Shown: positions 51,653 through 63,086, counted from the first letter of the stretch. The stretch is 64,000 nt of DNA from Acidobacteriota bacterium (GCA_039931865.1 JBDTRB010000003.1:5364-69363); one strand, 5' to 3'. Notes: generated from the letters alone by a model not told the origin. Numbers and translations are program-made.

Positions 51653-52654
51653 TCAGTCCTCGTCGTCATCGTCCTCGTCCTCATCGTCCTCGTCCTCGTC
51701 GTCCTCGTTCTCGTCGTCCTCATCGATCGCGTCGGAATCGCTGTCGCTGGCGTCGTCGTTCGGGGGGCCAGCGCTCCCCTTCCTCTTTCGAAGCGCCGCC
51801 GCGCCGGAAGCGGGCCCCGCGGCGGCGATGCTGGCGTCGTCGTCGTGGTCGTCGTCTTCGTCGTCGAAGTCATCTTCGTCGTCGTTTGCGGACGGCGGTA
51901 CCGAAGCGAGCGCGGCTGCGCCGGAAGTGGCCGCAGACGGCAGGGGCTCGTCCGATACCGTCGCCGCGAGGTCCTCTTCGATCTCCTCGGGCCGCGGCAG
52001 CTCCTCGAGCTCGTTCAATCCGAAACGGACCAGAAAATCCGGCGTGGTCTTGTACAGAAACGGCGTCCCGACGACCGCCTTCTTGCCCGCGGTCGTGATG
52101 AGCTTCTTTTCGAAGAGCGTCTTTAAGACCGACGCGGAGTTGACGCCGCGGATGTCCTGGACCTCCGGCAGCGTGATCGGCTGGCGGTACGCGATGATCG
52201 CGAGCGTCTCGAGCGCCGCGAGCGAAAGGCGGCTCCTCTCGCTGACTTCATGGAAACGGCGCAGGAGCGAATCGAACTCCGGGCGCGTGACGAAACGCCA
52301 GCCTCCGCCGACGTGCTCGAGCCTGACGCCGCGCGACGGGGAGTCTGTCTCGGCCGCAAGCGACGCCAGCGCCTCGCGGACGGCTTCGACCGTGGCCTCG
52401 AGAACGTTTGCGAGGTCGCGTTCGGACACGGGACGCGGCGAGGAGAAGAGCACCGCTTCCGCGGCATCGCGGATCTTTCCGGCGCGGGTCTCCCGCGGCT
52501 TTTCGACGGCGGGAGGCTCGGCGGCCGCCGCGGTCGTGTTGTCGGGCGCCGCAAGGCCGGCAGCCGAAGCCCCGTTCAGGGCCTGGACGTCCCCCTCCGG
52601 TGTCGCCTCCGGCGCCTCGGCGAGGGGCGTCTCCTCGGACGCGGTTGAGTTCAT
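51653..52654 (-). CDS. scpB: segregation and condensation protein B with long poly-acidic C-terminal tail
   Basis: Start at ATG 52652-52654. ScpB core: EAVLFSSPRPVS...GGGWRFVTRPEF...LS.AALETLAIIAYRQPITLPEVQDIRGV.S..VLKTL.EK.LI. The last ~79 aa are dominated by D/E. Confidence 0.88.
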   Translation of the reverse strand: MNSTASEETPLAEAPEATPEGDVQALNGASAAGLAAPDNTTAAAAEPPAVEKPRETRAGKIRDAAEAVLFSSPRPVSERDLANVLEATVEAVREALASLAAETDSPSRGVRLEHVGGGWRFVTRPEFDSLLRRFHEVSERSRLSLAALETLAIIAYRQPITLPEVQDIRGVNSASVLKTLFEKKLITTAGKKAVVGTPFLYKTTPDFLVRFGLNELEELPRPEEIEEDLAATVSDEPLPSAATSGAAALASVPPSANDDEDDFDDEDDDHDDDASIAAAGPASGAAALRKRKGSAGPPNDDASDSDSDAIDEDDENEDDEDEDDEDEDDDDED

Positions 52655-52661
52655 GGTTTTT

Positions 52662-53426
52662 TCACCGGTAAGTATCCCGCACCTGCTCCGCCGAAAAAGC
52701 CGAGTCCGTGCGCGACACGTGGATTTCCTCAAACGGCGCGGCCTGGAAGACGCGCACGACCCCGAGGCGAATCAGCTCGAGGCACGCCAGAAACGACGTG
52801 ACCGCTTCGGCGCGGTATCGCATCGTTCCGAGAAACTCGAGAAGTGGCATGACACCGGATCCCTCGAGGCGGTCGACGAGCTCCGCCATCTTCTCGCCGA
52901 CGGAAAACCGCAGGTGGTGAATCTCGAGCGCGGGCGGATGCGCCAGCCGGTACCGGTCCGTCACCTTGCGGAACGTGTCGATCAGGTCGAAGAGAGACAC
53001 TTCCAGCGTCTCGCCCTCGGGGGATCGGGGGATCTCCGTCTGTGGCCTGGACCACAGCCCGGCGCGGAGGGCGTCGATTTCGTGGAACGACTCGGCGGCT
53101 TCCTTGTAGCGTTCGTACTCGAGAAGCCGGCGCGCGAGGTCCTGCCGCGGGTCTTCTTCGGGCTCGCCCGGCGCGCGGGGCAGGAGCATGCGGGACTTGA
53201 CGTAGATGAGCTCCGCCGCGAGCGCGATGTAGTCGGAAGCGACGTCGAGGTCGAGCTCGCGCATCGCGTCCAGGTACGCCGTGTACTGCTCGGTGATTTC
53301 GAAGATCGGGATATCGGTGATCGAGACTTCGTTCACCCGGATCAGGTGGAGGAGAAGGTCGAGCGGTCCGGAGAACGCGGGGATCGCGACGGGCGGCAGC
53401 GACTCGCGAGCGGCCTCCTCGTTCAC
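52662..53426 (-). CDS. scpA: segregation and condensation protein A
   Basis: GTG start at 53424-53426, in a GTGA overlap with the upstream stop. Contains FSGPLDLLLHLIRVNEVSITDIPIFEITEQY and a winged-helix C-terminus. The 455-aa ORF was rejected. Confidence 0.85.
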   Translation of the reverse strand: MNEEAARESLPPVAIPAFSGPLDLLLHLIRVNEVSITDIPIFEITEQYTAYLDAMRELDLDVASDYIALAAELIYVKSRMLLPRAPGEPEEDPRQDLARRLLEYERYKEAAESFHEIDALRAGLWSRPQTEIPRSPEGETLEVSLFDLIDTFRKVTDRYRLAHPPALEIHHLRFSVGEKMAELVDRLEGSGVMPLLEFLGTMRYRAEAVTSFLACLELIRLGVVRVFQAAPFEEIHVSRTDSAFSAEQVRDTYR

Positions 53427-54214: not shown

Positions 54215-54521
54215 TCAGAACGCCGCCGTGTCCGCCGCGCTCACGAGCTGTCCCGAAGGGTTCGAATACGTCTTCACCTGCCCGGTCCGTGTGTCCGTGA
54301 CGGTGATCGGGTGATCGTGTACTGGAAGTCGGAAAGGGCGCCGTAGAAAACCCAGAACTTGTCGTTGAATGCGCGCCCGTCGACGACCTTGATCACGAGC
54401 TCCACGTGGTTCGAGGAGAGACAGCCGCCTTCTGCCGCACCAGGTCCATCGAAAGCGCAGGAGAAACGAGGAGCCACGTCAGGAAGGAGGCGGCCAGAAG
54501 GGTCCGGGTGAGATTTTTCAA
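54215..54521 (-). pseudogene. disrupted small secreted-protein gene (two frame changes, one caused by an 8-bp tandem duplication)
   Basis: Three consecutive minus-strand frames give: (1) TTG-start signal peptide (M)KNLTRTLLAASFLTWLLVSPALS; (2) ...GGCLSSNHVELVIKVVDGRAFNDKFWVFYGALSDFQYTIT; (3) ITVTDTRTGQVKTYSNPSGQLVSAADTAAF*. Segments 2 and 3 join perfectly if one copy of the duplicated GGTGATCG (54302-54309 / 54310-54317) is removed. Confidence 0.6.
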
Positions 54522-54702
54522 AACCGGCTTACTTCTCGAGCGCAGGCAGCGTGGCGGTTGCCGTCGCATCGCTGAGTACGCTGAAGGGGCCGGGGCGGGC
54601 GCCGGAAAAGCGATCCGGAAAGTATGTCGGGATGAAGCGGGGAAAAACCATCACGCGGCCGCGCGGCCGGGGGGTCACGCGAGCGGCGGAGGCTGGCGGT
54701 CG

Positions 54703-55347
54703 CTACGAACGGCCGTGCGCGCCTTTTTCCTCTTTCGGGAGGTCCGGCAGGCCGAGCTTCCGCCGGATCGCGCGGAAGTACTGGACCGGCTCCTCGCGCC
54801 ACGCTTTCTCCTGCGCCCACATGGAAAACTTTCCGCCGAGATCCCCGAGGTACGTGTAAGTCACGCGGCAAGACTCGCTCCCGACCGGCTCGACCCTCGT
54901 CTCGCCCATGACCCTCTCGATTGGCGTTCCCTCGCGATTGTCTCCGGAACGGGCATCCGATTTCCACGACAGCCGGTAGGCGCCCGCCTCGCCCTCCTCC
55001 GCCTGGTATCGCACGACCGCGTCCCGGTTCGTGTACGGAAACGGGTACGGCCAGACGAAATGGATGCGCGCGGCGCCTCGGTCCGAATCGAGGATCTCCG
55101 CCTTCTTCACCGCCGGTGAGAAGAGCTCCCGGTAGTGCGCGAAATCCGAGAGCACCGCCGCAACCTTCGCCGCAGGAGCGGGAATCTCCCCGCGGCCCCG
55201 CAGCCAGGGAGGACCGGCGGAGGCGCGCGCGATCCGGACGTCGATGCCCCGCGATGTGAACCAGGGAGAAAAGTCCGCCTCCGACGGCACCATTCCGGCG
55301 GTCAACAGAAACCCGACGATCGCCGCGCTCGGCAGAAAAGCTGTCAT
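54703..55347 (-). CDS. SRPBCC/START-like (polyketide-cyclase fold) protein with N-terminal signal/anchor
   Basis: Start at ATG 55345-55347, in an ATGA overlap. Hydrophobic N-terminus MTAFLPSAAIVGFLLTAGMV. START-like pattern ...KVAAVLSDFAHYRELFSPAVKKAEILD...ARIHFVWPYPFPYTNRDAVVRY. The fold assignment is from the motif pattern only. Confidence 0.65.
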   Translation of the reverse strand: MTAFLPSAAIVGFLLTAGMVPSEADFSPWFTSRGIDVRIARASAGPPWLRGRGEIPAPAAKVAAVLSDFAHYRELFSPAVKKAEILDSDRGAARIHFVWPYPFPYTNRDAVVRYQAEEGEAGAYRLSWKSDARSGDNREGTPIERVMGETRVEPVGSESCRVTYTYLGDLGGKFSMWAQEKAWREEPVQYFRAIRRKLGLPDLPKEEKGAHGRS

Positions 55348-55886
55348 GCGGGATCCATCCCGGCCGACCGCGGTGTCAACAACACGAGGGCGCCGCACAA
55401 TACGGAGAGGACGAGGTCTTCCACCACGGTCGACCAGCCGAGCGGCCTGGGCCAGAAGACCCCGAAACAGCCGCAGTTGGCGAGATGCAGTCCACGCAGG
55501 ATCGCCAGGGCCGACCATCCCGCGTACGCGATGTGCATCGCGAGTGCCGCCACGGCCGCGTCGAACGGCCGCCGGCCGACGATCAGCCACACGGCAAGCG
55601 CGAGCTCGGCGGCGGGGATGAGAGCGGCCAGAGGCAGCAGGAGCGCGTCCGGAAACGCCCTGTAAGTGCCGAGGACCTTCGCGAAGCCGGGCACGTCGAG
55701 AAACTTTCCGACGGCGGTCACGAAGAGGATCAGCGCGATGACGGCCCGAAGAATGTTCCGGGCACGGCGTTTCCCGAGCCAGTTGACCGCGGAGTACCGC
55801 GGCCGTCTCGCTCCCCTTGGTCGCTCGGCTCTCGATCCGGGCGACCCCGGCTCCCGGTTCTCGCCGCCCCGCGCCTCCCCCCTCAC
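55344..55886 (-). CDS. MauE/DoxX-like membrane protein
   Basis: Four TM helices with the family-typical NCGCFG motif in TM4. A GTG start (GTGA overlap with the DUF547 stop) gives a 45-aa Arg/Gly-rich leader that contains dispersed repeat copy B, so the true start is uncertain. Confidence 0.7.
   Translation of the reverse strand: MRGEARGGENREPGSPGSRAERPRGARRPRYSAVNWLGKRRARNILRAVIALILFVTAVGKFLDVPGFAKVLGTYRAFPDALLLPLAALIPAAELALAVWLIVGRRPFDAAVAALAMHIAYAGWSALAILRGLHLANCGCFGVFWPRPLGWSTVVEDLVLSVLCGALVLLTPRSAGMDPA
55781..55838. repeat. dispersed 58-nt repeat, copy B
   Basis: Matches 44604..44661 at 56 of 58 nt in the same orientation. Lies 45 nt beyond the DUF547 stop and inside the predicted 5' end of the MauE-like ORF. 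Confidence 0.9.
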
Positions 55887-56674
55887 CGCTGGTTCAGCGT
55901 CCAGTCGTAGGGGATGAACTCGACCTTCGAACCTTCCGGGATCTTCGTTTCGCGATACTTGTTGGCATAGGCGACGAGTGACGGCGACTTTTTCAGGAAG
56001 TCTTCCGTGTAGAACTGCAGGATCTGCGAGAAGTGGACCGTCTGCTTGTCGGGCTCCACCTGCACGTTTCGATGCTCGTTGAAGAAGTATTGCGCGGTCG
56101 CCTCGAGCTCCATGTCGAGCTGGTCGGCGCGAAACGGCTCCCGGGGAAGGCGGGGACAGCCCCGGACCATGCAGTTCAGCGCGAAATGGACCCGCGGGTC
56201 GCCCATCGGGCGGACGATCTTGTTCTCGAGGTCATACAGGGACATCTTTTCGCCGCCGATCTCGAGCTTGTTCCGGTAGAAGAACCGGACCTTGATCGCG
56301 TTCAAGTCCTTCGGCTGCCCGGACTCGAGCACGTTGTACAGCGCGAGCGCGTTGTAGGCGTTCAGGTAGTACGCGAGCTTCGACTCCTTCGTGGGAAAGG
56401 ACGCCGGCGTGTTTGCCGGGCTCACGCGCCCGATCCAGGCGACGTAAGCGTCCAGATCTCCGCGGTCCTTCGCGATGCCCGCAAAGTCGATGCGTCCCGT
56501 GTCGTCCACGTATTTCGAGAGGACGCGCGCCCATATGCGGTCGGCGTCTGCGACGGTCGCCGCCGTCCCCGCGGCGGCGGGCGCGGAGGAAGCGCTCTTC
56601 GGAGGCGGAACGTTGACCGCGCACGAAGCGGCGAAAACGAGAAGGAGCGGGAGGAAGGCGGCCGAGCGTTTCAT
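55883..56674 (-). CDS. DUF547-domain lipoprotein
   Basis: Start at ATG 56672-56674, in an ATGA overlap. Lipobox-like signal MKRSAAFLPLLLVFAASC. DUF547 hallmark AYYLNAYNALAL...DPRVHFALNCMVRGCPRL. Confidence 0.8.
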   Translation of the reverse strand: MKRSAAFLPLLLVFAASCAVNVPPPKSASSAPAAAGTAATVADADRIWARVLSKYVDDTGRIDFAGIAKDRGDLDAYVAWIGRVSPANTPASFPTKESKLAYYLNAYNALALYNVLESGQPKDLNAIKVRFFYRNKLEIGGEKMSLYDLENKIVRPMGDPRVHFALNCMVRGCPRLPREPFRADQLDMELEATAQYFFNEHRNVQVEPDKQTVHFSQILQFYTEDFLKKSPSLVAYANKYRETKIPEGSKVEFIPYDWTLNQR

Positions 56675-57960
56675 GCGAGCTGTTTTCCTCCGAGCGGACG
56701 CCCCGCCAGAACCGGCAGCGTCGCTCCCGACAATGGGTTCCAGATGCCCTCGCCCGCTTCGGTGACGACGCTGAGCGGTTTCAGGATGAACTCGTCGCGC
56801 TTCGCGTTGTGCGCGCACATCGAGACGGGGCCGTTTGCGGTCATGACCATGAAGGAGCAGGCGTGGATGCGCTCGGGTTCGAGCGCCGTCGCGTCCATGA
56901 AGTTCTGAACGAAGAACGACAGCTTGTGGACTCGTCCGCGCGAAGCGAGGAGATCCTGTCGCATGTTCCAGATCTTGCGTCCCGCAAAGCGCAGCGCCTG
57001 CCAGGCGAACCCGGGCTGCCGCCGGACTTCCGTCATCAGCGCCGAAACCGCGCGGCGCGGCTCGCGGCGGTCGAGCATGACGTGCTGGAAGTCCGTCAGG
57101 AACCGGTTGAAGAACTGGGGGTCGTCGTTCAAGTCGTGGAGGTTCCCGTTCGCTTCGAGGGTAATCCCGATCCGGTGGCAGCCGGGGTGGCCGATCAGGA
57201 TCGTGTCCCACGAGATCGGGATCTCCGCCCCCGCCACGATCTGCTCTCGGACCGTCTGGAGCGAGATGACTCGGTCGCGCTCCCGGAGGACTCCGCGGCC
57301 GGTGTCCGCCTGCAGCTGGAACGACGCCATACCGACCACGTCCGCATGCTTCCGGAAGAAGCGCACCATGTCCGGGATCTCGTCGAAGTTCTCGCGGCAG
57401 ACTGTGGTGTTGAAGATGACGGCGATCGGAATGCCGCGGGAGCGCTCGATGTACTCCTCGCGGATCGGGTTCAGATCCGCTTCCGTCCGGTATCCCTTGC
57501 GCTCCTGGGTGACGTCCACGTGGAACGCGACGTCGTTCAATCCGGCGGCGGCGAGCTCCTCGAGCATGTCCCGCGTCGCCTTGATCCCGTTGGTCATGAG
57601 CGTCGGCAGAAGACCCTTTTCCCGCGTGTACCGCACGATCTCGACGAGCTCTTCGCGCTTTCGAAGAGTCGGGTCGCCGCCGGTGATCTGGACCGCGGTC
57701 GGCGCCCCGTACTGCTCGTGGATCCGGTCGATGCGACGCAGGACCTCCTGGATCGGTATGTCCTTCACGCGCTCCGAATTCTCCGACAGGTAACAGAGGG
57801 TGCAGTCCAGATTGCACCGCTGGGTGATCTCGAGCGCCACGCACCCGATCGCGTTGCGCCGGCCGAGGACCTGGTTGGCCTGGAACAGCGGCCCCATGCG
57901 CTTGCGGGCGCGGTCCAGGGCGGCCGAACGGGTCTCCTGCGGGGAGGGAAGGGAGCTCAT
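56671..57960 (-). CDS. radical SAM enzyme of unassigned subfamily
   Basis: AGGAGG lies 4 nt upstream of ATG 57958-57960. Cluster motif RCNLDCTLCY, then ITGGDPTL and MTNG. The C-terminal Cys pair is HACSFMVMTANGPVSMCAHN. I can see no SPASM CxxCxxxxxC motif. Confidence 0.85.
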   Translation of the reverse strand: MSSLPSPQETRSAALDRARKRMGPLFQANQVLGRRNAIGCVALEITQRCNLDCTLCYLSENSERVKDIPIQEVLRRIDRIHEQYGAPTAVQITGGDPTLRKREELVEIVRYTREKGLLPTLMTNGIKATRDMLEELAAAGLNDVAFHVDVTQERKGYRTEADLNPIREEYIERSRGIPIAVIFNTTVCRENFDEIPDMVRFFRKHADVVGMASFQLQADTGRGVLRERDRVISLQTVREQIVAGAEIPISWDTILIGHPGCHRIGITLEANGNLHDLNDDPQFFNRFLTDFQHVMLDRREPRRAVSALMTEVRRQPGFAWQALRFAGRKIWNMRQDLLASRGRVHKLSFFVQNFMDATALEPERIHACSFMVMTANGPVSMCAHNAKRDEFILKPLSVVTEAGEGIWNPLSGATLPVLAGRPLGGKQLA

Positions 57961-58079
57961 CGGGCCTCCTGAGGGCAGCCGCCGGACGTCGAATCGACCG
58001 GGGCGGAAACTTTCCTACATCATACGGTGGAAGGCGGAATTCGGATGTCATCGCGTTGGGCGTCGAGCGGCAGGGGCTA

Positions 58080-58164: not shown

Positions 58165-58740
58165 ATGGAAAAAACCGCGGGGACGGACGATCGCAAGCTG
58201 ATCGAGCGCATCCGGCTGGGCGACCAGGACGGCGCGGGCGAGCTTTTCGAGCGGTATTCCGCCTCCCTGCTCCGCTTTGCCGACCGACTGCTCTCCGACC
58301 GCGCGATGGCGGAGGAAGTCACTCAGGAGGTTTTCGTCAAAGTGATCACGAGGGCGCATCAGTACGACGGGCGGGCGGAGGTCTCCTCCTGGCTCTTCGC
58401 GATCGCGGCCAACGCCTGCCGCGACCGAAGGCGCCGGGACCGCCGCGCCAACGTCGTCCCTCTCGAGGCTGTCCCCGAGCCGACGTCGAAGGGGGAGGGC
58501 ATCGAGGCCCGTCTGCTCAGCCACGAGCGCCGAGAGGCCGTTCGGGAGGCCCTGAATTCTCTGTCCGACGAACAGCGGGAAGCGCTCGTGCTCGCCCGCT
58601 ACCACGGACTGCCCTATTCCGAGATCGCCGCCGTGCTCGGCATCTCCGTCGGTGCAGTGAAAACCCGTATTTTCCGGGCCGTCGAGACCCTGAAGGCCCG
58701 TTTCCAGGAAGGAGAAACGACATGGAATGCCGCAAACTGA
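58165..58740 (+). CDS. ECF-family RNA polymerase sigma factor
   Basis: Region 2 (ELFERYSASLLRFADRLLSDRAMAEEVTQEVFVKV...SWLFAIAANACRD) and region 4 (LSDEQREALVLARYHGLPYSEIAAVLGISVGAVKTRIFRA). Confidence 0.92.
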   Translation: MEKTAGTDDRKLIERIRLGDQDGAGELFERYSASLLRFADRLLSDRAMAEEVTQEVFVKVITRAHQYDGRAEVSSWLFAIAANACRDRRRRDRRANVVPLEAVPEPTSKGEGIEARLLSHERREAVREALNSLSDEQREALVLARYHGLPYSEIAAVLGISVGAVKTRIFRAVETLKARFQEGETTWNAAN

Positions 58741-59669
58741 CCGAACTTGCCTTAGACGGCAGGCTGTCCGACGCCCCGGGTCCCCTCCGGGAGGAGGTTG
58801 CGGCGCACGCGGAAAGCTGTTCGGCCTGCCGCTCGGAGCTCGAGACTCTGGAGCACGCGTGGGACCGGCTCGGTGACGATCCCGACCTGCCGGTCACGCC
58901 CGAGTTCCGGCGGCGGACCCTCGCACTCCTGGAAGACGAGATGCTCCGGTCCCGCATCCGCACGTTCACCCCGCGCCGCGGCCGCCGCTGGACGCGCCCG
59001 CTGCTCGAGGCCGCGGCCGTGCTGGTCGCCGCAATCACCGGTTACGGCGCCGCGCGGCAGCTCTCTCCCTCCTCGTCCCTCGCGCCCTCCCGCGCCGCCG
59101 CATCCGCGGCGGTCCCCGCGAGACTCGAGAAGGCCGGCGCGCTCGCCAACGTGGCGTACCGGCCCCCGGATGCGCAGGGGCGCATTGGAGTCAGCTTCGA
59201 CGTCACGTCTCGCGAGACCGTCCTCGGTCGTCCCGATGATCCTCAAATGGCGCGCCTGATCGCGTTCCTCGTTTCGCGCGGCGCGCAGACGGCCGGCGAG
59301 AAGTCGCGCGCGATCGACCTCGTGTCGGCGAACTACGGCGTGAAGGTGTCTCCGGCGTCACCCGACATCGTGCTCGCTTTGACGAACACCTTGAAGAAGG
59401 ACCAGAACCCGGGTGTCCGGAAGAAAGCCGCCGACGCCCTCGCGGGATTCCGCATGACGCCGGAAATCCGCGCCGCGTTTCTGGAGGCGCTCCGCTCGGA
59501 TCGGCACCCGGGCGTGAGGCTCGTCGCGGTCGAGGCTCTCGCGGCGGCCGCGAAGGATTCTCCCGACCGCAAGACCATCGAGTCGCTTCGCGAGAAGGCA
59601 TTCGATCCCGCCGAAAACGGGTTCGTCCGCGCGCGCGCGGCGTCGGCTCTGAAAGGCATTGAATTCTGA
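58722..59669 (+). CDS. anti-sigma factor (zf-HC2) with one TM and a periplasmic HEAT-repeat domain
   Basis: Start at ATG 58722, overlapping the sigma gene by 19 nt. Zinc motif H-x3-C-x2-C (AAHAESCSACR), TM LLEAAAVLVAAITGYGA, and HEAT-like NPGVRKKAADALAGF...HPGVRLVAVEALA. Confidence 0.8.
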   Translation: MECRKLTELALDGRLSDAPGPLREEVAAHAESCSACRSELETLEHAWDRLGDDPDLPVTPEFRRRTLALLEDEMLRSRIRTFTPRRGRRWTRPLLEAAAVLVAAITGYGAARQLSPSSSLAPSRAAASAAVPARLEKAGALANVAYRPPDAQGRIGVSFDVTSRETVLGRPDDPQMARLIAFLVSRGAQTAGEKSRAIDLVSANYGVKVSPASPDIVLALTNTLKKDQNPGVRKKAADALAGFRMTPEIRAAFLEALRSDRHPGVRLVAVEALAAAAKDSPDRKTIESLREKAFDPAENGFVRARAASALKGIEF

Positions 59670-59671
59670 AA

Positions 59672-61669
59672 ATGCGTAACTCCCTGGTTTTTCCCGCGTC
59701 CTGGAAAGCGATGAACAGATCCTTGCGGCGCGCTTCGCCTTCTCACATCCGGCGGACAGAGTCCGACGGTCCGGGTCTCTGGATCGTTTTCGCGATCGGC
59801 CTGCTGCTGATGCTCGCGGCGTCTCTCCTCCGGGCGGATGACGCAAACGTCGCACGCAAGACCGAGCGGTTCAACGCGACGCTTCCCGCGCGGTCCACGC
59901 TGCGCGTCTTGAACGTGTCGGGAGACGTCGTCGCGAAGCCCGGCCGCGAATTCTCCGCGGTCTGCCAGACGAGCGTGACCGCGTCGACGAAGGCCCGCGC
60001 CGAGGAGATTCTCTCGCGCACGCGCACCGTCCAGCTGCGCGACGGCGACGAGCTGCGGCTCGAATCCCGGTGGCCCGAGATGGGGGAGGAAACCTCGTGG
60101 TTCTCCCGGTCCTCCCGCCCCGGCTCGTGGCGCACCGCGTCCCGCTGCCGCGACTGCCGCATCACCATGCAGTACGAGGTCGTCGTCCCTCCCGGCGTGT
60201 TGGCGATTCTTCACACGGTGAATGGCGAAGTGCGGATCGAAGACCTCGACGGCGAGCTCGACGCCCAGACGGTGAACGGGAACGTCACGGTGCGCGGATC
60301 ACGGCGCGGCGTGCGCGCGCAGACCGTCAACGGGAAAATCGACGTGTCCGCGGCCGCCGCTCCGCAGGGCGCGGTTCTCGATTTGAAGACCGTCTCGGGC
60401 GCGGTCCTGCTGACGCTGCCGAAGGACGCCCGGTTCGATCTCTCCGCGACTGCGATGAACGGGTCGATCGTCTCGACATTTTCCCTCACCCCGTCCAGGG
60501 CCGCGGGGGTTCCCGAACCCGCGATCGCCGACTCCGACAAAGCCGAGCGCCGGGCCCGAACTGAGCGCGAGCGCTCTCATCACCGCGTCGTGGTCGAGAG
60601 AAACGGCGACGACACGGTCGTCGACGTGCCGGAGCTTCAGCGGGAGCTCGAGGAATCAATGAAGGACATGGACGTGCAGATACGCGAGTCGCTCCGCGAC
60701 GTGGAGCGCGAGACCACGCGGATGAAGTTTCTGATGCCGGGCGGGGAGTACAACGGCTCCACGGGCAAGGGCGGCGCGCGCGTGCGCGTCTCCACCCTGA
60801 CCGGCCGGATCGCGATCCTGGCGGCGAACACTCGCGCAGCGGATGCGAGGCCGCTCGTCGAGCGGCGCTCGTTCGTCGTGACGATCCCGAAAGTGGACGT
60901 TCGGCTTGGCGAGATGAGGGTGCGCGTTCCGCGTCCCCCGCGTCCGCCGCACGTCGCGCAGGAGTCGAACGGCGAGGTCGAGCATCCGGAAGACGAGGCG
61001 GTCGTCCGGGGCGACGTCGCCGGCGACTTTCTCGCGACGGCAGGCGCCGGCACGTACCGCGTGGGACGAGTCGCCGGAAAGGTGAACATCCTCACCCATT
61101 CCGGCGAGATCCACATCGCAGGAGCGGGGTCGTCGGCGGACCTGAAGACTTACGGCGGAGACATCCAGATCGGGCCGGTCGCGGGGGATCTGAAGGCGCA
61201 GACGCTCGCCGGCGACATTCGCGCCGGCTCGGTCGCCGGATCGGTCTCGGCCGACACTTCGGGGGGCGACGTGCGCATCGACCGCATCGTGGGATCGGCC
61301 GACGTCAAGACGGGCGGCGGAGACGTGGTCCTGCCCGCCGTGGGCGGGAGTGTCCGCGTCGAGACCGGCGGAGGCGAAGTTCGGGTCGGCCTCACGTCTC
61401 GCGATGCCAGGGGGGGTGTCACGATCCGGAACGCTGGCGGAGACGTCACGATCACCCTTCCGTCGAATTTCCGTGGCGAGATCGATCTCACGGCGTCGGA
61501 CGCCGACCTCGACGAGACCGCCATCCGGTCGGATTTTCCGGAGATCACCGTGACGCGGCGTTCTGGATCGCAGCAGGCGAAGGCCACTTTGAACGGAGGC
61601 GGGCCGCGTGTCACCGTGCGGACATCGTCGGGCTCGATCCGGATCCGGCGCGGGGCGGAAGCGCACTAA
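59672..61669 (+). CDS. DUF4097 (putative adhesin/beta-helix) repeat protein, membrane-anchored
   Basis: N-terminal TM LWIVFAIGLLLMLAASLL. Two blocks of V.G.I.I/T.GG.V repeats (TVNGEVRIEDLDGELDAQTVNGNVTV...; TYGGDIQIGPVAGDLKAQTLAGDIRAG...TGGGDVVL...TGGGEVRV). The start could instead be the Met at 59711. Confidence 0.8.
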   Translation: MRNSLVFPASWKAMNRSLRRASPSHIRRTESDGPGLWIVFAIGLLLMLAASLLRADDANVARKTERFNATLPARSTLRVLNVSGDVVAKPGREFSAVCQTSVTASTKARAEEILSRTRTVQLRDGDELRLESRWPEMGEETSWFSRSSRPGSWRTASRCRDCRITMQYEVVVPPGVLAILHTVNGEVRIEDLDGELDAQTVNGNVTVRGSRRGVRAQTVNGKIDVSAAAAPQGAVLDLKTVSGAVLLTLPKDARFDLSATAMNGSIVSTFSLTPSRAAGVPEPAIADSDKAERRARTERERSHHRVVVERNGDDTVVDVPELQRELEESMKDMDVQIRESLRDVERETTRMKFLMPGGEYNGSTGKGGARVRVSTLTGRIAILAANTRAADARPLVERRSFVVTIPKVDVRLGEMRVRVPRPPRPPHVAQESNGEVEHPEDEAVVRGDVAGDFLATAGAGTYRVGRVAGKVNILTHSGEIHIAGAGSSADLKTYGGDIQIGPVAGDLKAQTLAGDIRAGSVAGSVSADTSGGDVRIDRIVGSADVKTGGGDVVLPAVGGSVRVETGGGEVRVGLTSRDARGGVTIRNAGGDVTITLPSNFRGEIDLTASDADLDETAIRSDFPEITVTRRSGSQQAKATLNGGGPRVTVRTSSGSIRIRRGAEAH

Positions 61670-61696
61670 AAACGTCGACTCCGCTCACTGCGGGAC

Positions 61697-61722
61697 GTGC
61701 CTTCGCCTGTGGGCGAAGGCAC
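61697..61722 (+). terminator. strong hairpin, possible U-tract-less terminator
   Basis: GTGCCTTCGCC-tgtg-GGCGAAGGCAC, a perfect 11-bp stem, lies 28 nt after the stop at 61669. No T-run follows. Confidence 0.4.
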
Positions 61723-61881
61723 CGGCGGGCGGGTCGGCCGGATGCGGCCTCCACCGCCCGCCTCGTCCCTCCGTTCGCTGCGGCTCCCGCGTATTCACCA
61801 TATTCGCGATGGCGCGCCACCTTTCTCTCGTGGGAGGAGGCCCGCAGGCGCTGCTTGCAGGTGTGGCCTTCCCGTCGAACA

Positions 61882-61897
61882 GGGTAAGGTTCTTGCA
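61882..61897 (+). promoter_or_regulatory. weak sigma-54-like -24/-12 element
   Basis: gGGtaaGgttcTTGCA has the correct GG-to-GC spacing (G61884 to G61895 is 11 nt) and matches 9 of the 12 specified consensus positions (TGGCACG-N4-TTGCA). It lies 53 nt upstream of ATG 61950. No enhancer-binding protein gene is nearby. Confidence 0.2.
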
Positions 61898-61949
61898 TTC
61901 TTCGTCGCGGACGAACCCGAACGGCAATGACGAAAAAGAGGAGCCTTCC

Positions 61950-63086
61950 ATGAACCGACTCAAACGATTGGCTGCGGCATTCCTGGCTCTGGCCTGTGTT
62001 GCCGTGGGAACTGCCTCGGCGCAGGCCCGCTCAGGCGCCAAGGTGGACTTGAATTCCGCGTCGAGCAGCGAGCTCGAGGCCCTCCCGGGCGTGGGAGCCG
62101 CGACCGCGAAAAAGATCATCGCGGGCCGGCCATATTCGAGCGCCGTGGACCTTTCGAAAGCGGGCGTGTCCGCCGCCACGATTCAGAAGATCTCAGGGAT
62201 GGTGACGGTCAGCGGTGCCAGGTCGACGTCGGCGGCTTCCGCCCCGGCCGCGGCCCGCGAGAGCCGGACGCGCCCCGAGCCCGCGCATGCGGGGGGAATG
62301 GGTTCCTCTTCCTCGCAGGGATCGGTCGAACTGAACAGCGCATCGCAGAAAGACCTCGAGGCGTTGCCCGGCGTCGGCGCCGCCACGGCGAAGAAGATCA
62401 TCGCGGGGCGGCCCTACACGTCGGTCGCCGACCTCTCGAAGGCGGGAGTCTCCGAGGCGACGATCCGCAAGATCTCCCCCCTCGTGACAGTCTCCTCCTC
62501 CCGTCCCGCCGACGCTTCTTCCGGGCGGTCCGGCTCCGGGTCGGCCGCAGCGTCGGCGCCGGCGCCGTCTTCCGCGAGGAGCGCGGGCGGCGCTTCCGCG
62601 AATGCGGGCGGTCCGGTCGATCTCAACAGCGCGAGCCAGAAGGATCTCGAGGCTCTTCCCGAGGTCGGCCCGGCGACGGCCAGGAAGATCATGGCGGGAA
62701 GGCCCTACTCCTCCGTCGGCGACCTCGGCCGCGCCGGAGTTTCGGCCGCGACGATCTCGAAGATCTCGCCGCTCGTCACAGTCCGCGGCTCTTCTTCCGC
62801 TTCGCCCTCCTCGTCCTCCTCGTCCTCTTCAGCCTCTTCAGCGCCAGCCGCCGGGTCGGCGGCAGCGACGCGTTCCTCCGGAGGCAACCGGACAGCACCC
62901 GCCGCGTCCGCTCCCTATCAGGCGCCTCCGTCTCCCGGAATGGTCTGGGTGAATCTCGAGACGAAGGTCTTCCACCGGGAAGGCGACAAATGGTACGGAA
63001 GAACCAAGCGCGGCCGGTACATGAGCGAAGCCGACGCGGTGAAGGGTGGCTATCGGCTCTCGAAGGAGAAGGACGAACCGAAGTGA
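61950..63086 (+). CDS. secreted protein with three ComEA-type helix-hairpin-helix modules and a C-terminal sunset-like domain
   Basis: AAGAGGAG lies upstream of ATG 61950. Signal peptide MNRLKRLAAAFLALACVAVGTASA. Three copies of (V/K)(D/E)LNSAS..(D/E)LEALPGVG.ATAKKIIAGRPY.S..DL.KAGVS.ATI.KIS..VTV at about 62040-62210, 62325-62492 and 62616-62783, separated by Ser/Ala-rich linkers. The tail is MVWVNLETKVFHREGDKWYGRTKRGRYMSEADAVKGGYR. Confidence 0.85.
   Translation: MNRLKRLAAAFLALACVAVGTASAQARSGAKVDLNSASSSELEALPGVGAATAKKIIAGRPYSSAVDLSKAGVSAATIQKISGMVTVSGARSTSAASAPAAARESRTRPEPAHAGGMGSSSSQGSVELNSASQKDLEALPGVGAATAKKIIAGRPYTSVADLSKAGVSEATIRKISPLVTVSSSRPADASSGRSGSGSAAASAPAPSSARSAGGASANAGGPVDLNSASQKDLEALPEVGPATARKIMAGRPYSSVGDLGRAGVSAATISKISPLVTVRGSSSASPSSSSSSSSASSAPAAGSAAATRSSGGNRTAPAASAPYQAPPSPGMVWVNLETKVFHREGDKWYGRTKRGRYMSEADAVKGGYRLSKEKDEPK

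What the first reader, a model, noticed from the sequence alone, without database searches (positions are those of the whole stretch)
54703..57960. Four-gene, start/stop-overlapping module: radical SAM, DUF547 lipoprotein, MauE/DoxX-like membrane protein, SRPBCC/START-like protein
Seen in sequence: four minus-strand ORFs (56671-57960, 55883-56674, 55344-55886, 54703-55347) are chained by 4-nt overlaps (ATGA 56671-56674, GTGA 55883-55886, ATGA 55344-55347). The first has AGGAGG 4 nt upstream of its ATG, so this looks like one translationally coupled operon.

Motifs seen:
- Radical SAM: RCNLDCTLCY and ITGGDPTL, plus a C-terminal Cys pair (HACSF...SMCAHN) with no SPASM-type motif.
- DUF547: HFALNCMVRGCP, with a lipobox signal.
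- MauE-type: NCGCFG inside a TM helix.
- A START-like protein with an N-terminal anchor.

Established knowledge: DUF547 and MauE-family proteins are poorly characterised and Cys-motif based, and SRPBCC domains bind hydrophobic ligands or lipids.

Inference: an envelope-associated radical enzyme acting on a hydrophobic (lipid-like) substrate, with thiol-redox and carrier accessories. From memory only, the C-terminal segment FVQNFMDATALEPERIHACSFMVMTANGPVSMCAHN resembles the C-terminal motif of COG1964-type radical SAM enzymes, the family that includes archaeal tetraether-lipid synthase. I cannot verify this without a profile search. I know of no characterised system with this four-gene composition.
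Basis: partly seen in the sequence, partly recalled or inferred. Interest (0 to 1): 0.7.

Follow-up and report, generated by a model that had tools for sequence, protein, structure and literature searches.

The report
Tes-like radical SAM operon with envelope partners
A real four-gene operon in an Acidobacteria (Thermoanaerobaculia) genome pairs an uncharacterised relative of the archaeal tetraether-lipid synthase with three envelope proteins, and in other bacteria the same enzyme pair sits next to arsenic-methylating and arsenosugar genes, making it a testable candidate for unknown lipid or organoarsenic chemistry.

Summary
Four minus-strand genes (56671-57960, 55883-56674, 55344-55886, 54703-55347) are chained by 4-nt overlaps. 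All the cited motifs are present, and each gene passes its Pfam threshold: Radical_SAM, DUF547, MauE, Polyketide_cyc2/START.

The best NCBIfam hits are TrsS and Tes, both far below cutoff. The best solved structure, by sequence and by fold, is GDGT-MAS (7TOL). The protein is not a Tes orthologue: it lacks the N-terminal stretch where Tes carries its rubredoxin-like and N-terminal cluster domains. It keeps only the radical SAM core and the C-terminal Cys motif.

The conserved unit is the radical SAM + DUF547 pair, adjacent in about 85-90% of 127 informative loci from several phyla. MauE is frequent. The START-like gene is confined to Acidobacteriota loci.

In 28 of 161 related loci the pair abuts ArsM-like, ArsS, TIGR04283 glycosyltransferase or nucleosidase-like genes, and one homologue is fused to that glycosyltransferase. 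None of these lies in this window.

Best reading: Tes-type radical chemistry on a lipid-like substrate, whose product is handled by exported thiol-redox and lipid-binding proteins, probably in organoarsenical (arsenolipid) metabolism. The function is unproven. I found no description of this pairing in the literature I could search.

The parts
57965..57970 (-). Shine-Dalgarno-like AGGAGG, 4 nt upstream of the radical SAM ATG
   Evidence: Read directly from the sequence.
56671..57960 (-). Radical SAM enzyme, 429 aa, soluble. A Tes/TrsS-related (COG1964-type) subfamily reduced to the RS core plus a C-terminal Cys-motif domain.
   Evidence: PF04055 at 68.8 bits. TrsS 107 bits and Tes 96 bits, both below cutoff. 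7TOL E=1e-20 by sequence. Both domains align with the family profile. Foldseek gives 7TOL E=5e-13, TMq 0.60, 403 columns. No TM segment.
57793..57816 (-). CX3CX2C (C49, C53, C56), the radical SAM [4Fe-4S] motif
   Evidence: Invariant in alignments A1 and A2.
56806..56901 (-). C-terminal motif FMDA...C368...C382..N. It aligns with the C-terminal region of Tes, the domain that holds the auxiliary cluster there.
   Evidence: Aligned to 7TOL residues about 450-505. F354, M355, C368, M381, C382 and N385 are invariant, as are C40 and C261 elsewhere in the protein. Tes cluster ligation is taken from PMC13459092.
55883..56674 (-). DUF547 lipoprotein, 263 aa, exported. The obligate partner of the radical SAM enzyme.
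   Evidence: PF04784 at 80.4 bits. Lipobox and signal segment. Adjacent to the rSAM gene in 61/69 and 44/58 loci. The high-confidence model has no PDB fold match.
56156..56173 (-). CX4C (C168...C173) within HFALNCMVRGCP
   Evidence: Present in 99 of 99 partner-type DUF547 proteins where the region is readable. Also kept in paralogues.
55344..55886 (-). MauE/DoxX-type membrane protein, 180 aa, about four TM helices
   Evidence: PF07291 at 73.7 bits. TM segments. Found in 36/69 genome loci.
55467..55475 (-). CGC of the NCGCFG motif in MauE
   Evidence: CGCFG present in 43 of 43 MauE neighbours.
54703..55347 (-). SRPBCC/START-like lipid-binding protein, 214 aa, with an N-terminal signal or anchor
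   Evidence: PF10604 at 45.5 bits. Best PDB match is 3QSZ, a STAR-related lipid transfer protein, at 2e-6. Homologues carry signal or lipobox N-termini. Found only in Acidobacteriota/Thermoanaerobaculia loci.
54652..54665 (-). Terminator-like hairpin followed by a T-run, about 40 nt after the last stop codon. A possible operon end.
   Evidence: The number of such sites found does not exceed chance expectation.

Best explanation
The four genes form one operon that splits a pathway across the inner membrane.

Shown:
- A soluble radical SAM enzyme with the fold of tetraether synthase. It keeps the RS core and the C-terminal Cys/Met motif that aligns with the Tes C-terminal region, which in Tes holds the cluster that captures a lipid-tail radical. 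It lacks the N-terminal stretch where Tes carries its two N-terminal metallodomains.
- An exported DUF547 lipoprotein with an invariant CX4C.
- A four-helix MauE protein with an invariant CGC.
- An exported START-like lipid-binding protein.

Inferred:
- The radical SAM enzyme abstracts a hydrogen from an unactivated carbon of a lipid-like substrate at the cytoplasmic face of the membrane and functionalises that carbon.
- The product reaches the outer face. There the dithiol enzyme DUF547 processes or binds it. MauE keeps DUF547 in the right redox state, and the START-like protein carries the hydrophobic product.
- In related bacteria the rSAM-DUF547 pair is wired directly to ArsM-like methyltransferases, ArsS and other arsenosugar genes, and one homologue is fused to the TIGR04283 glycosyltransferase. 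The most likely chemistry therefore concerns organoarsenicals.
- By analogy with ArsS, where a carbon radical adds to dimethylarsenite, a lipid carbon radical would be joined to (or a lipid-linked arsenical rearranged around) a methylated As(III). This would give or modify an arsenolipid.
For: Homology and fold:
- Tes-type sequence and fold similarity.
- Four invariant extra Cys (C40, C261, C368, C382) and conserved Met.
- Tes uses its 3Cys+1Met C-terminal cluster to capture a lipid radical: PMC13459092.

Partner conservation:
- rSAM-DUF547 adjacency in 61/69 species-level genome loci and 44/58 distant metagenome loci, with most of the rest having DUF547 just upstream.
- A natural-looking rSAM-TM-DUF547 fusion (P0125) whose linker is the lipobox region, matching a cytoplasm/periplasm split.

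Interchangeable thiol-redox helpers next to the pair:
- MauE, periplasmic thioredoxins, and DedA-FAD disulfide reductase fusions as neighbours; DUF547 itself is also found fused to DUF1223 or to a membrane ferredoxin.

Interchangeable exported lipid binders:
- START-like in Acidobacteriota, chalcone-isomerase/FAP-like in Bdellovibrionota and Proteobacteria, never together.
- A DedA/VTT (lipid scramblase family) gene lies between a paralogous rSAM and DUF547 in L167.

Arsenic link:
- 28 of 161 loci have ArsS (441-450 bits, cutoff 300), an ArsM-like methyltransferase, the TIGR04283 GT or a nucleosidase-like gene next to the pair. Several distinct same-strand arrangements occur: ArsM-ArsS-rSAM-DUF547, rSAM-DUF547-ArsM, and DUF547'-rSAM-DUF547-MauE-ArsS.
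- rSAMs next to ArsM are 62-63% identical to the window protein.
- GT-rSAM fusion P0121, TIGR04283 at 230 bits against cutoff 182.
- In Thermoanaerobaculia orthologues (76% identity) with the same module, the GT sits directly upstream.
- ArsS chemistry (carbon radical plus DMAs(III)): PMC13598754.
Against: - No ars-type gene (ArsS, ArsM-like, GT, nucleosidase, ArsC, TIGR04169) occurs anywhere in the 64-kb window.
- About 80% of related loci show none within 7 kb.
- ArsS/ArsM adjacency is so far seen only in Bdellovibrionota, Proteobacteria and unassigned metagenome contigs. In Acidobacteriota only the GT is seen.
- The ArsM-like proteins score below NCBIfam cutoffs (190 against 263).
- No substrate, product or activity is known for any family member, for DUF547, or for TrsS.
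- The predicted model cannot show a lipid pocket, because no coordinates were available.
- Cluster ligation by the four Cys is inferred from alignment only.
- The 'arsenosugar' names of the TIGR04283 and TIGR04169 families are themselves annotations based on gene context.
Confidence: 0.35

Rival explanations
1. A non-arsenic lipid or hydrophobic-metabolite modification. The Tes-like enzyme functionalises a membrane lipid, quinone, carotenoid or polyprenyl-linked sugar, for example by sulfur insertion from its auxiliary cluster or by an intramolecular C-C bond. DUF547, MauE and START act on or carry the product in the envelope. The ars neighbours would be a lineage-specific add-on.
For: - The window and most loci lack ars genes.
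- Tes fold and C-terminal cluster motif.
- In Tes a C-S adduct with the cluster is an observed intermediate (PMC13459092).
- Lipid-binding and scramblase-type neighbours.
- A GT2 partner could make a lipid-linked sugar.
- The thiol-redox helpers would fit a thiol-bearing product.
Against: - It does not explain why ArsM and ArsS are repeatedly placed in the same strand and run as the pair, in several independent arrangements.
- No candidate product is known in well-studied hosts such as Alteromonas or Methylomonas (my own knowledge).
Confidence: 0.22
2. A true Tes/Mss-like tail-to-tail coupling enzyme that makes membrane-spanning or macrocyclic lipids (iso-diabolic acid or brGDGT precursors). 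This is the reading implied by the first reader.
For: - The closest solved structure is GDGT-MAS.
- JGI labels several family members 'tetraether lipid synthase'.
- The membrane-spanning lipid synthase of Acidobacteria is still unknown: no Mss, and Tes homologues in only 3 of 14 producers (PMC13159169).
- Bacterial Tes homologues have been proposed for brGDGT synthesis (PMC8941075).
Against: - Scores are far below the Tes cutoff (96 against 450), and only the RS core matches the Tes model.
- The N-terminal stretch where Tes carries two metallodomains is missing.
- The family is spread over Bdellovibrionota, Nitrospinota, Alteromonas, Methylomonas and Burkholderiales. To my knowledge these are not membrane-spanning-lipid producers.
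- The obligate exported dithiol partner has no counterpart in Tes or Mss systems.
- This reading does not explain the ars linkage.
Confidence: 0.1
3. The radical SAM enzyme is a maturase that post-translationally modifies its neighbour DUF547 (or another exported protein) before export, as anSME does for sulfatases and QhpD for QhpC. MauE would assist periplasmic maturation, as it does for methylamine dehydrogenase.
For: - Near-obligate 1:1 adjacency and translational coupling of a cytoplasmic rSAM with an exported protein carrying an invariant Cys motif.
- MauE is named for a protein-maturation role (Pfam PF07291).
Against: - No SPASM or twitch domain.
- The fold matches the lipid enzyme Tes far better than peptide maturases (5e-13 against 1e-6 for SkfB).
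- Paralogous DUF547 proteins keep the same CX4C motif, and DUF547 is known in plants as a glutaredoxin fusion with no rSAM partner described.
- The rSAM-TM-DUF547 fusion places the two domains on opposite sides of the membrane.
- The GT fusion and the lipid-binder neighbours point to a small-molecule substrate.
Confidence: 0.1
4. An organoarsenical handling or detoxification module rather than a biosynthetic one. Examples would be anaerobic C-As bond cleavage, or reduction and sequestration of methylated arsenicals. DUF547's dithiol would bind As(III) in the periplasm.
For: - Ars gene adjacency, including an ArsC-like reductase and MerA-like disulfide reductases.
- CX4C dithiols are typical As(III) ligands (general knowledge).
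Against: - The neighbours are biosynthetic (ArsM, ArsS, GT, nucleosidase) rather than efflux or repressor genes.
- A Tes-type fold and the lipid-binding partners are not explained.
Confidence: 0.08

Closest known systems
Tetraether synthase Tes / GDGT-MAS (M. jannaschii MJ0619, PDB 7TOL; NCBIfam NF045702)
   Same: - Best solved-structure match by sequence and by fold over about 400 residues.
- Shares the RS core and the C-terminal FMDA...C...C..N motif, which aligns with the Tes C-terminal region.
- No SPASM domain detected here.
   Different: - 96 bits against a cutoff of 450, about 20% identity.
- Lacks roughly the first 100 residues, where Tes carries its rubredoxin-like domain and the [4Fe-4S]N domain.
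- Bacterial, with an obligate exported DUF547 partner.
- Substrate unknown, and the host range does not match producers of membrane-spanning lipids.
TrsS radical SAM (seleno)protein (NCBIfam NF045646; Haft & Tolstoy 2025, not readable here)
   Same: Best NCBIfam hit, and the only one that aligns end to end (residues 39-386 to model positions 86-431 of 441). Probably the nearest named sister family.
   Different: - 107 bits against a cutoff of 490.
- The window protein lacks the first 85 or so model positions.
- The reading frame is uninterrupted, so there is no in-frame UGA/Sec codon.
- TrsS itself has no function described in the review I could read, which lists it only in a table.
- Its gene context could not be checked.
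ArsS / arsenosugar biosynthesis cluster (TIGR04167, TIGR04283, TIGR04169, ArsM)
   Same: - Physically linked to the rSAM-DUF547 pair in 28 of 161 related loci.
- The GT is fused to a family member.
- ArsS gives a chemical precedent for adding a carbon radical to DMAs(III).
   Different: - ArsS is a different radical SAM family (DUF3641 C-terminus).
- None of these genes is in the window.
- I found no paper or NCBIfam model that lists this pair as part of the cluster.
MauE/MauD of methylamine dehydrogenase maturation; DoxX-type membrane thiol-redox proteins
   Same: The third gene is a clear MauE family member with the CGCFG motif. It sits beside an exported Cys-motif protein.
   Different: - No mau genes.
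- No thioredoxin-like (MauD-type) neighbour was seen in the window's flanks; an exported DUF547 sits beside MauE instead.
- MauE is dispensable in about half of the loci.
Bacterial membrane-spanning lipid synthase Mss (Thermotoga; Sahonero-Canavesi 2022)
   Same: A radical SAM enzyme acting on lipid tails. It is described as only remotely related to Tes.
   Different: - Not compared directly, because no Mss sequence or model was available.
- No DUF547, MauE or START partner was mentioned in the passages I read.

Membership tests
Radical SAM superfamily (PF04055) | CX3CX2C cluster motif and Pfam score above the gathering threshold | tested here: met
   C49/C53/C56 are invariant. 68.8 bits against 29.5.
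Tetraether synthase Tes (NF045702) | Score above the NCBIfam equivalog cutoff (450 bits), with a full-length match | tested here: not met
   96 bits. Only residues 41-230 match model positions 88-281 of 486.
Tetraether synthase Tes (NF045702) | Four-domain architecture with a rubredoxin-like Fe domain and an N-terminal [4Fe-4S] domain (PMC13459092) | tested here: not met
   Only about 40 residues precede the RS core, against about 110 in 7TOL. The alignment starts at 7TOL residue 110-112.
Tetraether synthase Tes (NF045702) | C-terminal domain with an auxiliary [4Fe-4S] cluster (3 Cys + 1 Met) | tested here: inconclusive
   The C-terminal region aligns with 7TOL 380-510 (i-E 0.028). C261, C368, C382, M355 and M381 are invariant. 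Actual ligation was not testable.
Tetraether synthase Tes (NF045702) | Overall fold | tested here: met
   Foldseek top hits are 7TOL/7TOM: E 5e-13, 403 columns, TMq 0.60. The next family is at 1e-6.
Tetraether synthase Tes (NF045702) | Catalyses tail-to-tail C-C coupling of membrane lipids | not testable with these tools
   Needs lipidomics or enzymology.
TrsS (NF045646) | Score above the equivalog cutoff (490 bits) | tested here: not met
   107 bits, although the alignment spans residues 39-386.
SPASM/twitch peptide-maturase radical SAM enzymes | C-terminal SPASM or twitch Cys-rich domain, usually with a nearby precursor peptide | tested here: not met
   No SPASM Pfam hit. SPASM families match only over the RS core. 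The overlapping genes leave no room for a precursor ORF.
DUF547 (PF04784) | Pfam score above threshold, and the N-C-x4-C-P motif | tested here: met
   80.4 bits against 27. CX4C present in 99 of 99 partner-type proteins.
MauE (PF07291) | Pfam score above threshold, polytopic membrane protein, CGCFG motif | tested here: met
   73.7 bits against 27. About four TM segments. CGCFG in 43 of 43.
SRPBCC/START (PF10604, PF03364) | Pfam score above threshold, and similarity to a lipid-transfer START protein | tested here: met
   45.5 bits against 27.4. 3QSZ STAR-related lipid transfer protein at 2e-6.
Arsenosugar biosynthesis gene cluster (ArsS, ArsM, TIGR04283/04169) | ArsS and ArsM present in the same locus | tested here: not met
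   None in the 64-kb window. Present next to homologues in 20 related loci, or 28 counting GT and nucleosidase.
Mss membrane-spanning lipid synthase | Sequence similarity to Thermotoga Mss | not tested

The most novel reading that the evidence does not exclude
The radical SAM enzyme is an 'arsenolipid synthase'. It makes a Tes-style radical on the terminal carbon of a lipid chain and couples that radical to methylated As(III) supplied by ArsM, forming the C-As bond of arsenic-containing fatty acids or hydrocarbons. The exported DUF547 dithiol, recycled by MauE, and the START or CHI-like carriers then handle the trivalent arsenolipid in the envelope. To my knowledge no enzyme is known for this step.
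Probability: 0.13. Interest if true: 0.9.

Novelty: new variant of a known kind. Interest (0 to 1): 0.68.

Why it matters
- If the arsenic link holds, this pair is a concrete, widely distributed gene candidate for steps of organoarsenical or arsenolipid biosynthesis that, to my knowledge, have no known enzymes. At least 571 species-level genomes matched the search. A cultured host with a complete genome, Alteromonas sp. 4B03, is available for genetics.
- Independently of arsenic, the finding defines a minimal Tes-type radical SAM architecture. It also gives the first functional context for bacterial DUF547, a domain also present in plants whose confident model matches no solved structure.
- It is a practical warning. 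JGI annotation already labels some members 'tetraether lipid synthase'. Relaxed Tes-homologue surveys used to infer bacterial brGDGT producers could therefore count this family wrongly.

Tried and rejected
- The rSAM-DUF547 'fusion' P0093 is a frameshifted read-through: its middle segment is out-of-frame sequence. I discarded it as evidence. P0125 looks genuine.
- The close homologue P0089 (65% identity) has no partner genes at all, so the pairing is not universal.
- A fold search of the confident DUF547 model found nothing (best E 2.7).
- An Rfam scan of the whole window found nothing.
- A sigma-70 promoter scan found nothing, and terminator-like sites are within chance.
- GC content gives no sign of a foreign island.
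- Searches of the window for ArsS, ArsM, GT, nucleosidase, CHI-like, DedA-reductase, ArsC, TIGR04169, DUF3179, DUF302, thioredoxin, or a second rSAM/DUF547 copy were all negative.
- Literature searches for DUF547 with radical SAM, for arsenosugar cluster composition, and for the TIGR accession numbers gave no relevant paper.
- The paper that defines TrsS (Haft & Tolstoy 2025) could not be opened.
- My first single-linkage clustering of neighbour ORFs merged the module genes because of over-extended ORFs. I redid it with stricter coverage.
- My iterated DUF547 HMM picked up weak shadow-frame hits inside the rSAM gene. Only strong hits were counted.

Full report
**1. The observation**

They are chained by ATGA, GTGA and ATGA overlaps. 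AGGAGG sits 4 nt before the first ATG. For the third gene, the overlapping GTG is the only in-frame start codon upstream of its first membrane helix.

All quoted motifs are present. Each protein passes its Pfam gathering threshold: Radical_SAM 68.8 bits, DUF547 80.4, MauE 73.7, Polyketide_cyc2 45.5. No SPASM domain is found.

Hydropathy shows a soluble radical SAM protein, a single N-terminal hydrophobic segment ending in a lipobox for DUF547, about four helices for MauE, and one N-terminal hydrophobic segment for the SRPBCC protein.

GC content matches the flanks. A terminator-like hairpin follows the last gene, but such sites are no more frequent here than chance allows. No sigma-70-type promoter and no Rfam element was found.

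The flanks are housekeeping or regulatory genes:
- Upstream, divergent: an ECF sigma factor, a HEAT-repeat protein that I take to be its anti-sigma factor, and DUF4097.
- Downstream: an M50 protease, ScpA, ScpB, RluB and Cmk.

**2. Source organism**

Near-identical loci come from Thermoanaerobaculia (Acidobacteriota) metagenome-assembled genomes: L006 at 99% and L007 at 95%.

**3. What the radical SAM protein is**

- In NCBIfam the two best hits are TrsS (107 bits; aligned over residues 39-386) and tetraether synthase Tes (96 bits; RS core only). Both are far below their cutoffs of 490 and 450.
- In the PDB the best sequence match is GDGT-MAS/Tes 7TOL (E 1e-20).
- With a family profile, both the RS core (7TOL 112-319) and the C-terminal region (7TOL 380-510) align, including FMDA...R..C.....C..N.
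- An AlphaFold model (pLDDT 81) finds 7TOL/7TOM as top fold matches over about 400 columns (E 5e-13, TMq 0.60). That is six orders of magnitude ahead of SkfB, MoaA, HydE and BioB.

It is not a Tes orthologue. According to a 2026 review, Tes has four metallodomains: a rubredoxin-like Fe domain, an N-terminal [4Fe-4S] domain, the RS cluster, and a C-terminal [4Fe-4S] cluster with 3 Cys + 1 Met that captures the lipid radical (PMC13459092). The window protein has only about 40 residues before the RS core. Outside the CX3CX2C motif, the family keeps four invariant Cys (C40, C261, C368, C382) and invariant Met at 355 and 381. It is therefore a minimal Tes-type enzyme: the RS core plus the C-terminal Cys/Met motif.

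The family is sizeable but narrow. It has 134 clusters at 50% identity with E<=1e-30. At least 571 species-level genomes matched. The listed loci come from Acidobacteriota, Bdellovibrionota, Nitrospinota, Alpha-, Beta- and Gammaproteobacteria and SAR324. One is from a cultured strain, Alteromonas sp. 4B03.

Public annotations are inconsistent: 'PFL-activating enzyme', 'MoaA', 'dihydro-hydroxymethylpterin dimethyltransferase' and 'tetraether lipid synthase' all appear.

**4. What is conserved around it**

I called ORFs in 161 related loci and searched them with the window proteins.

| Neighbour | 80 genome loci nearest the window protein (69 informative) | 80 metagenome loci nearest a distant member (58 informative) |
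|---|---|---|
| DUF547 immediately downstream, same strand | 61 | 44 (most others have it just upstream) |
| MauE | 36 | 5 |
| SRPBCC/START | 13, all Acidobacteriota/Thermoanaerobaculia | 0 |

'Informative' means at least 900 bp of sequence downstream of the rSAM gene. The conserved unit is therefore the rSAM + DUF547 pair. The four-gene form is a Thermoanaerobaculia elaboration.

Other points on the partners:
- The partner DUF547 has the CX4C in 99 of 99 readable cases, and MauE has CGCFG in 43 of 43.
- One homologue, P0125, is a fusion rSAM-(hydrophobic linker/lipobox)-DUF547. This fits a cytoplasmic enzyme tied to a periplasmic domain.
- Another apparent fusion, P0093, is a frameshift artefact.
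- The DUF547 model is confident (pLDDT 89.7) but matches no solved fold.
- In plants DUF547 is known only as a fusion to glutaredoxin (PMC13621322).

**5. Interchangeable accessories**

Thiol-redox helpers vary between lineages:
- MauE.
- Periplasmic thioredoxins.
- DUF547 fused to DUF1223 (Alteromonas) or to a membrane ferredoxin.
- A recurrent 714-aa DedA(VTT)-FAD disulfide-reductase fusion.

Exported hydrophobic-ligand binders also vary:
- START-like in Acidobacteriota. Its best PDB match is a STAR-related lipid transfer protein, and homologues carry signal or lipobox N-termini.
- Chalcone-isomerase/FAP-like (PF16036) in Bdellovibrionota and Proteobacteria.
- The two are never found together.

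In a Thermoanaerobaculia relative (L167), a second paralogous module reads rSAM-DedA/VTT-DUF547. DedA/VTT proteins are, to my knowledge, lipid scramblases or flippases.

This is inference from context.

**6. An unforeseen link to arsenic**

Recurrent neighbours outside the close relatives include:
- Bona fide ArsS (441-450 bits against cutoff 300).
- ArsM-like methyltransferases (about 190 bits on the arsenite methyltransferase model, below its cutoff of 263).
- The TIGR04283 'arsenosugar biosynthesis glycosyltransferase' (up to 187 bits against cutoff 182).
- A nucleoside-hydrolase-like protein.
- The TIGR04169 peroxidase-like protein (196 bits against cutoff 120).
- ArsC-like reductases.

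Twenty-eight of 161 loci carry at least one of ArsS, ArsM-like, GT or nucleosidase next to the pair. Twenty carry ArsS and/or ArsM-like. Several distinct same-strand layouts occur:
- ArsM-ArsS-rSAM-DUF547
- ArsS-rSAM-DUF547
- rSAM-DUF547-ArsM
- DUF547'-rSAM-DUF547-MauE-ArsS

A Bdellovibrio contig (L069) holds the whole set in 11 kb. One homologue (P0121) is a TIGR04283-GT::rSAM fusion, with the GT domain at 230 bits.

In Thermoanaerobaculia orthologues (76% identical, same four-gene module), the GT lies directly upstream. The rSAMs next to ArsM are 62-63% identical to the window protein.

ArsS is known to add a carbon radical to dimethylarsenite (PMC13598754).

Against this, the window itself has none of these genes in 64 kb. 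Most loci show none within 7 kb. ArsS/ArsM adjacency is so far seen in Bdellovibrionota, Proteobacteria and unassigned contigs, not in Acidobacteriota.

**7. Mechanism I commit to (confidence about 0.35)**

A cytoplasmic Tes-type radical SAM enzyme activates an unactivated C-H of a lipid-like molecule. The product crosses the membrane. There the DUF547 dithiol, kept in the right redox state by MauE, processes or binds it, and the START-like protein carries it. The pathway most likely belongs to organoarsenical (arsenolipid) metabolism.

What is shown: the gene structure, the homologies, the fold, the conserved residues, the topology signals and the neighbourhood statistics. What is inferred: the substrate class, the direction of flow, the role of each accessory, and the arsenic chemistry.

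Rivals, with rough weights:
- A non-arsenic lipid or hydrophobic-metabolite modification (0.22).
- Genuine Tes/Mss-like tail coupling (0.10). This is disfavoured by the missing domains, the scores and the host range. It remains relevant because the acidobacterial membrane-spanning-lipid synthase is still unknown.
- A maturase acting on DUF547 (0.10).
- An arsenical-handling module (0.08).

**8. Novelty**

No NCBIfam model reaches its cutoff for the rSAM. The two that hit at all for the partners are none for DUF547 or SRPBCC and one weak hit for MauE. No held paper links DUF547 with a radical SAM enzyme or lists this pair in arsenosugar clusters.

The closest named family, TrsS, comes from a paper I could not open. 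I rate the finding a new variant of a known kind: a Tes/TrsS-type radical SAM enzyme with a new minimal architecture and new obligate partners.

Noticed in passing
window 54274-54569 (-), duplication at 54302-54317: The 584-nt gap after the operon holds the remains of a small secreted-protein gene: a signal-like LLAASFLTWLLVSPALS, then ...VELVIKVVDGRAFNDKFWVFYGALSDFQYTIT.... It is split over several reading frames. One break coincides with a tandem 8-nt duplication, CGATCACC CGATCACC. This is either a pseudogene or an assembly error.
   Followed up: partly
window 58165-61669 (+); L167 4579-5503: An ECF sigma factor, a HEAT-repeat protein that I take to be its anti-sigma factor, and a DUF4097 protein lie divergently upstream of the operon. 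They are syntenic with it in about 13 Thermoanaerobaculia loci. In L167 a different ECF sigma plus a 113-aa ORF sit on the same strand directly upstream of the paralogous rSAM-DedA-DUF547 module. ECF control of these modules is possible.
   Followed up: partly
L167 1612-4566 (-); also L018, L020: Some Thermoanaerobaculia carry two paralogous modules. The second is rSAM2-VTT/DedA-DUF547. A nitroreductase and a FAD disulfide reductase lie between the two modules.
   Followed up: partly
L052 3071-5215, L059 9753-11900, L069 3094-5238, L123 10589-12904: A recurrent protein of about 714 aa fuses an N-terminal DedA/VTT membrane domain to a MerA-like pyridine-nucleotide disulfide oxidoreductase. It lies next to the rSAM-DUF547 pair.
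   Followed up: partly
L080 5839-6987 (-), L085 5990-7027 (-), L131 5935-7005 (-), about 12 loci in all: A protein of 350-380 aa with no Pfam or NCBIfam hit lies divergently upstream of the rSAM gene in about a dozen mainly gammaproteobacterial and unclassified proteobacterial loci, including Alteromonas sp. 4B03.
   Followed up: partly
L080 8478-10250, L077 3324-5096, L027 9116-10993: DUF547 occurs fused to DUF1223 (Alteromonas sp. 4B03 and another Pseudomonadota genome). It also occurs fused to a membrane 4Fe-4S ferredoxin region (a Pseudobdellovibrionaceae genome). This reinforces a redox role for DUF547.
   Followed up: partly
metagenome loci, e.g. L133 768-1901 and L135 1049-1705: In the more distant part of the family, DUF3179 and DUF302 proteins (10 loci each), HAD hydrolases and TetR regulators are frequent neighbours of the pair. 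No explanation yet.
   Followed up: no
proteins P0049, P0051, P0053, P0075 and others: JGI annotates members of this family variously as 'tetraether lipid synthase', '7,8-dihydro-6-hydroxymethylpterin dimethyltransferase', 'pyruvate-formate lyase-activating enzyme' or 'MoaA'. Surveys of bacterial 'Tes homologues' for brGDGT sources could pick these up.
   Followed up: no
window 61608-63086 (+) and 51653-52732 (-): The first ORF is a secreted-looking protein with three tandem ComEA-like helix-hairpin-helix repeats separated by Ser/Ala-rich linkers. The second is ScpB, which carries a long Asp/Glu-rich C-terminal tail.
   Followed up: no
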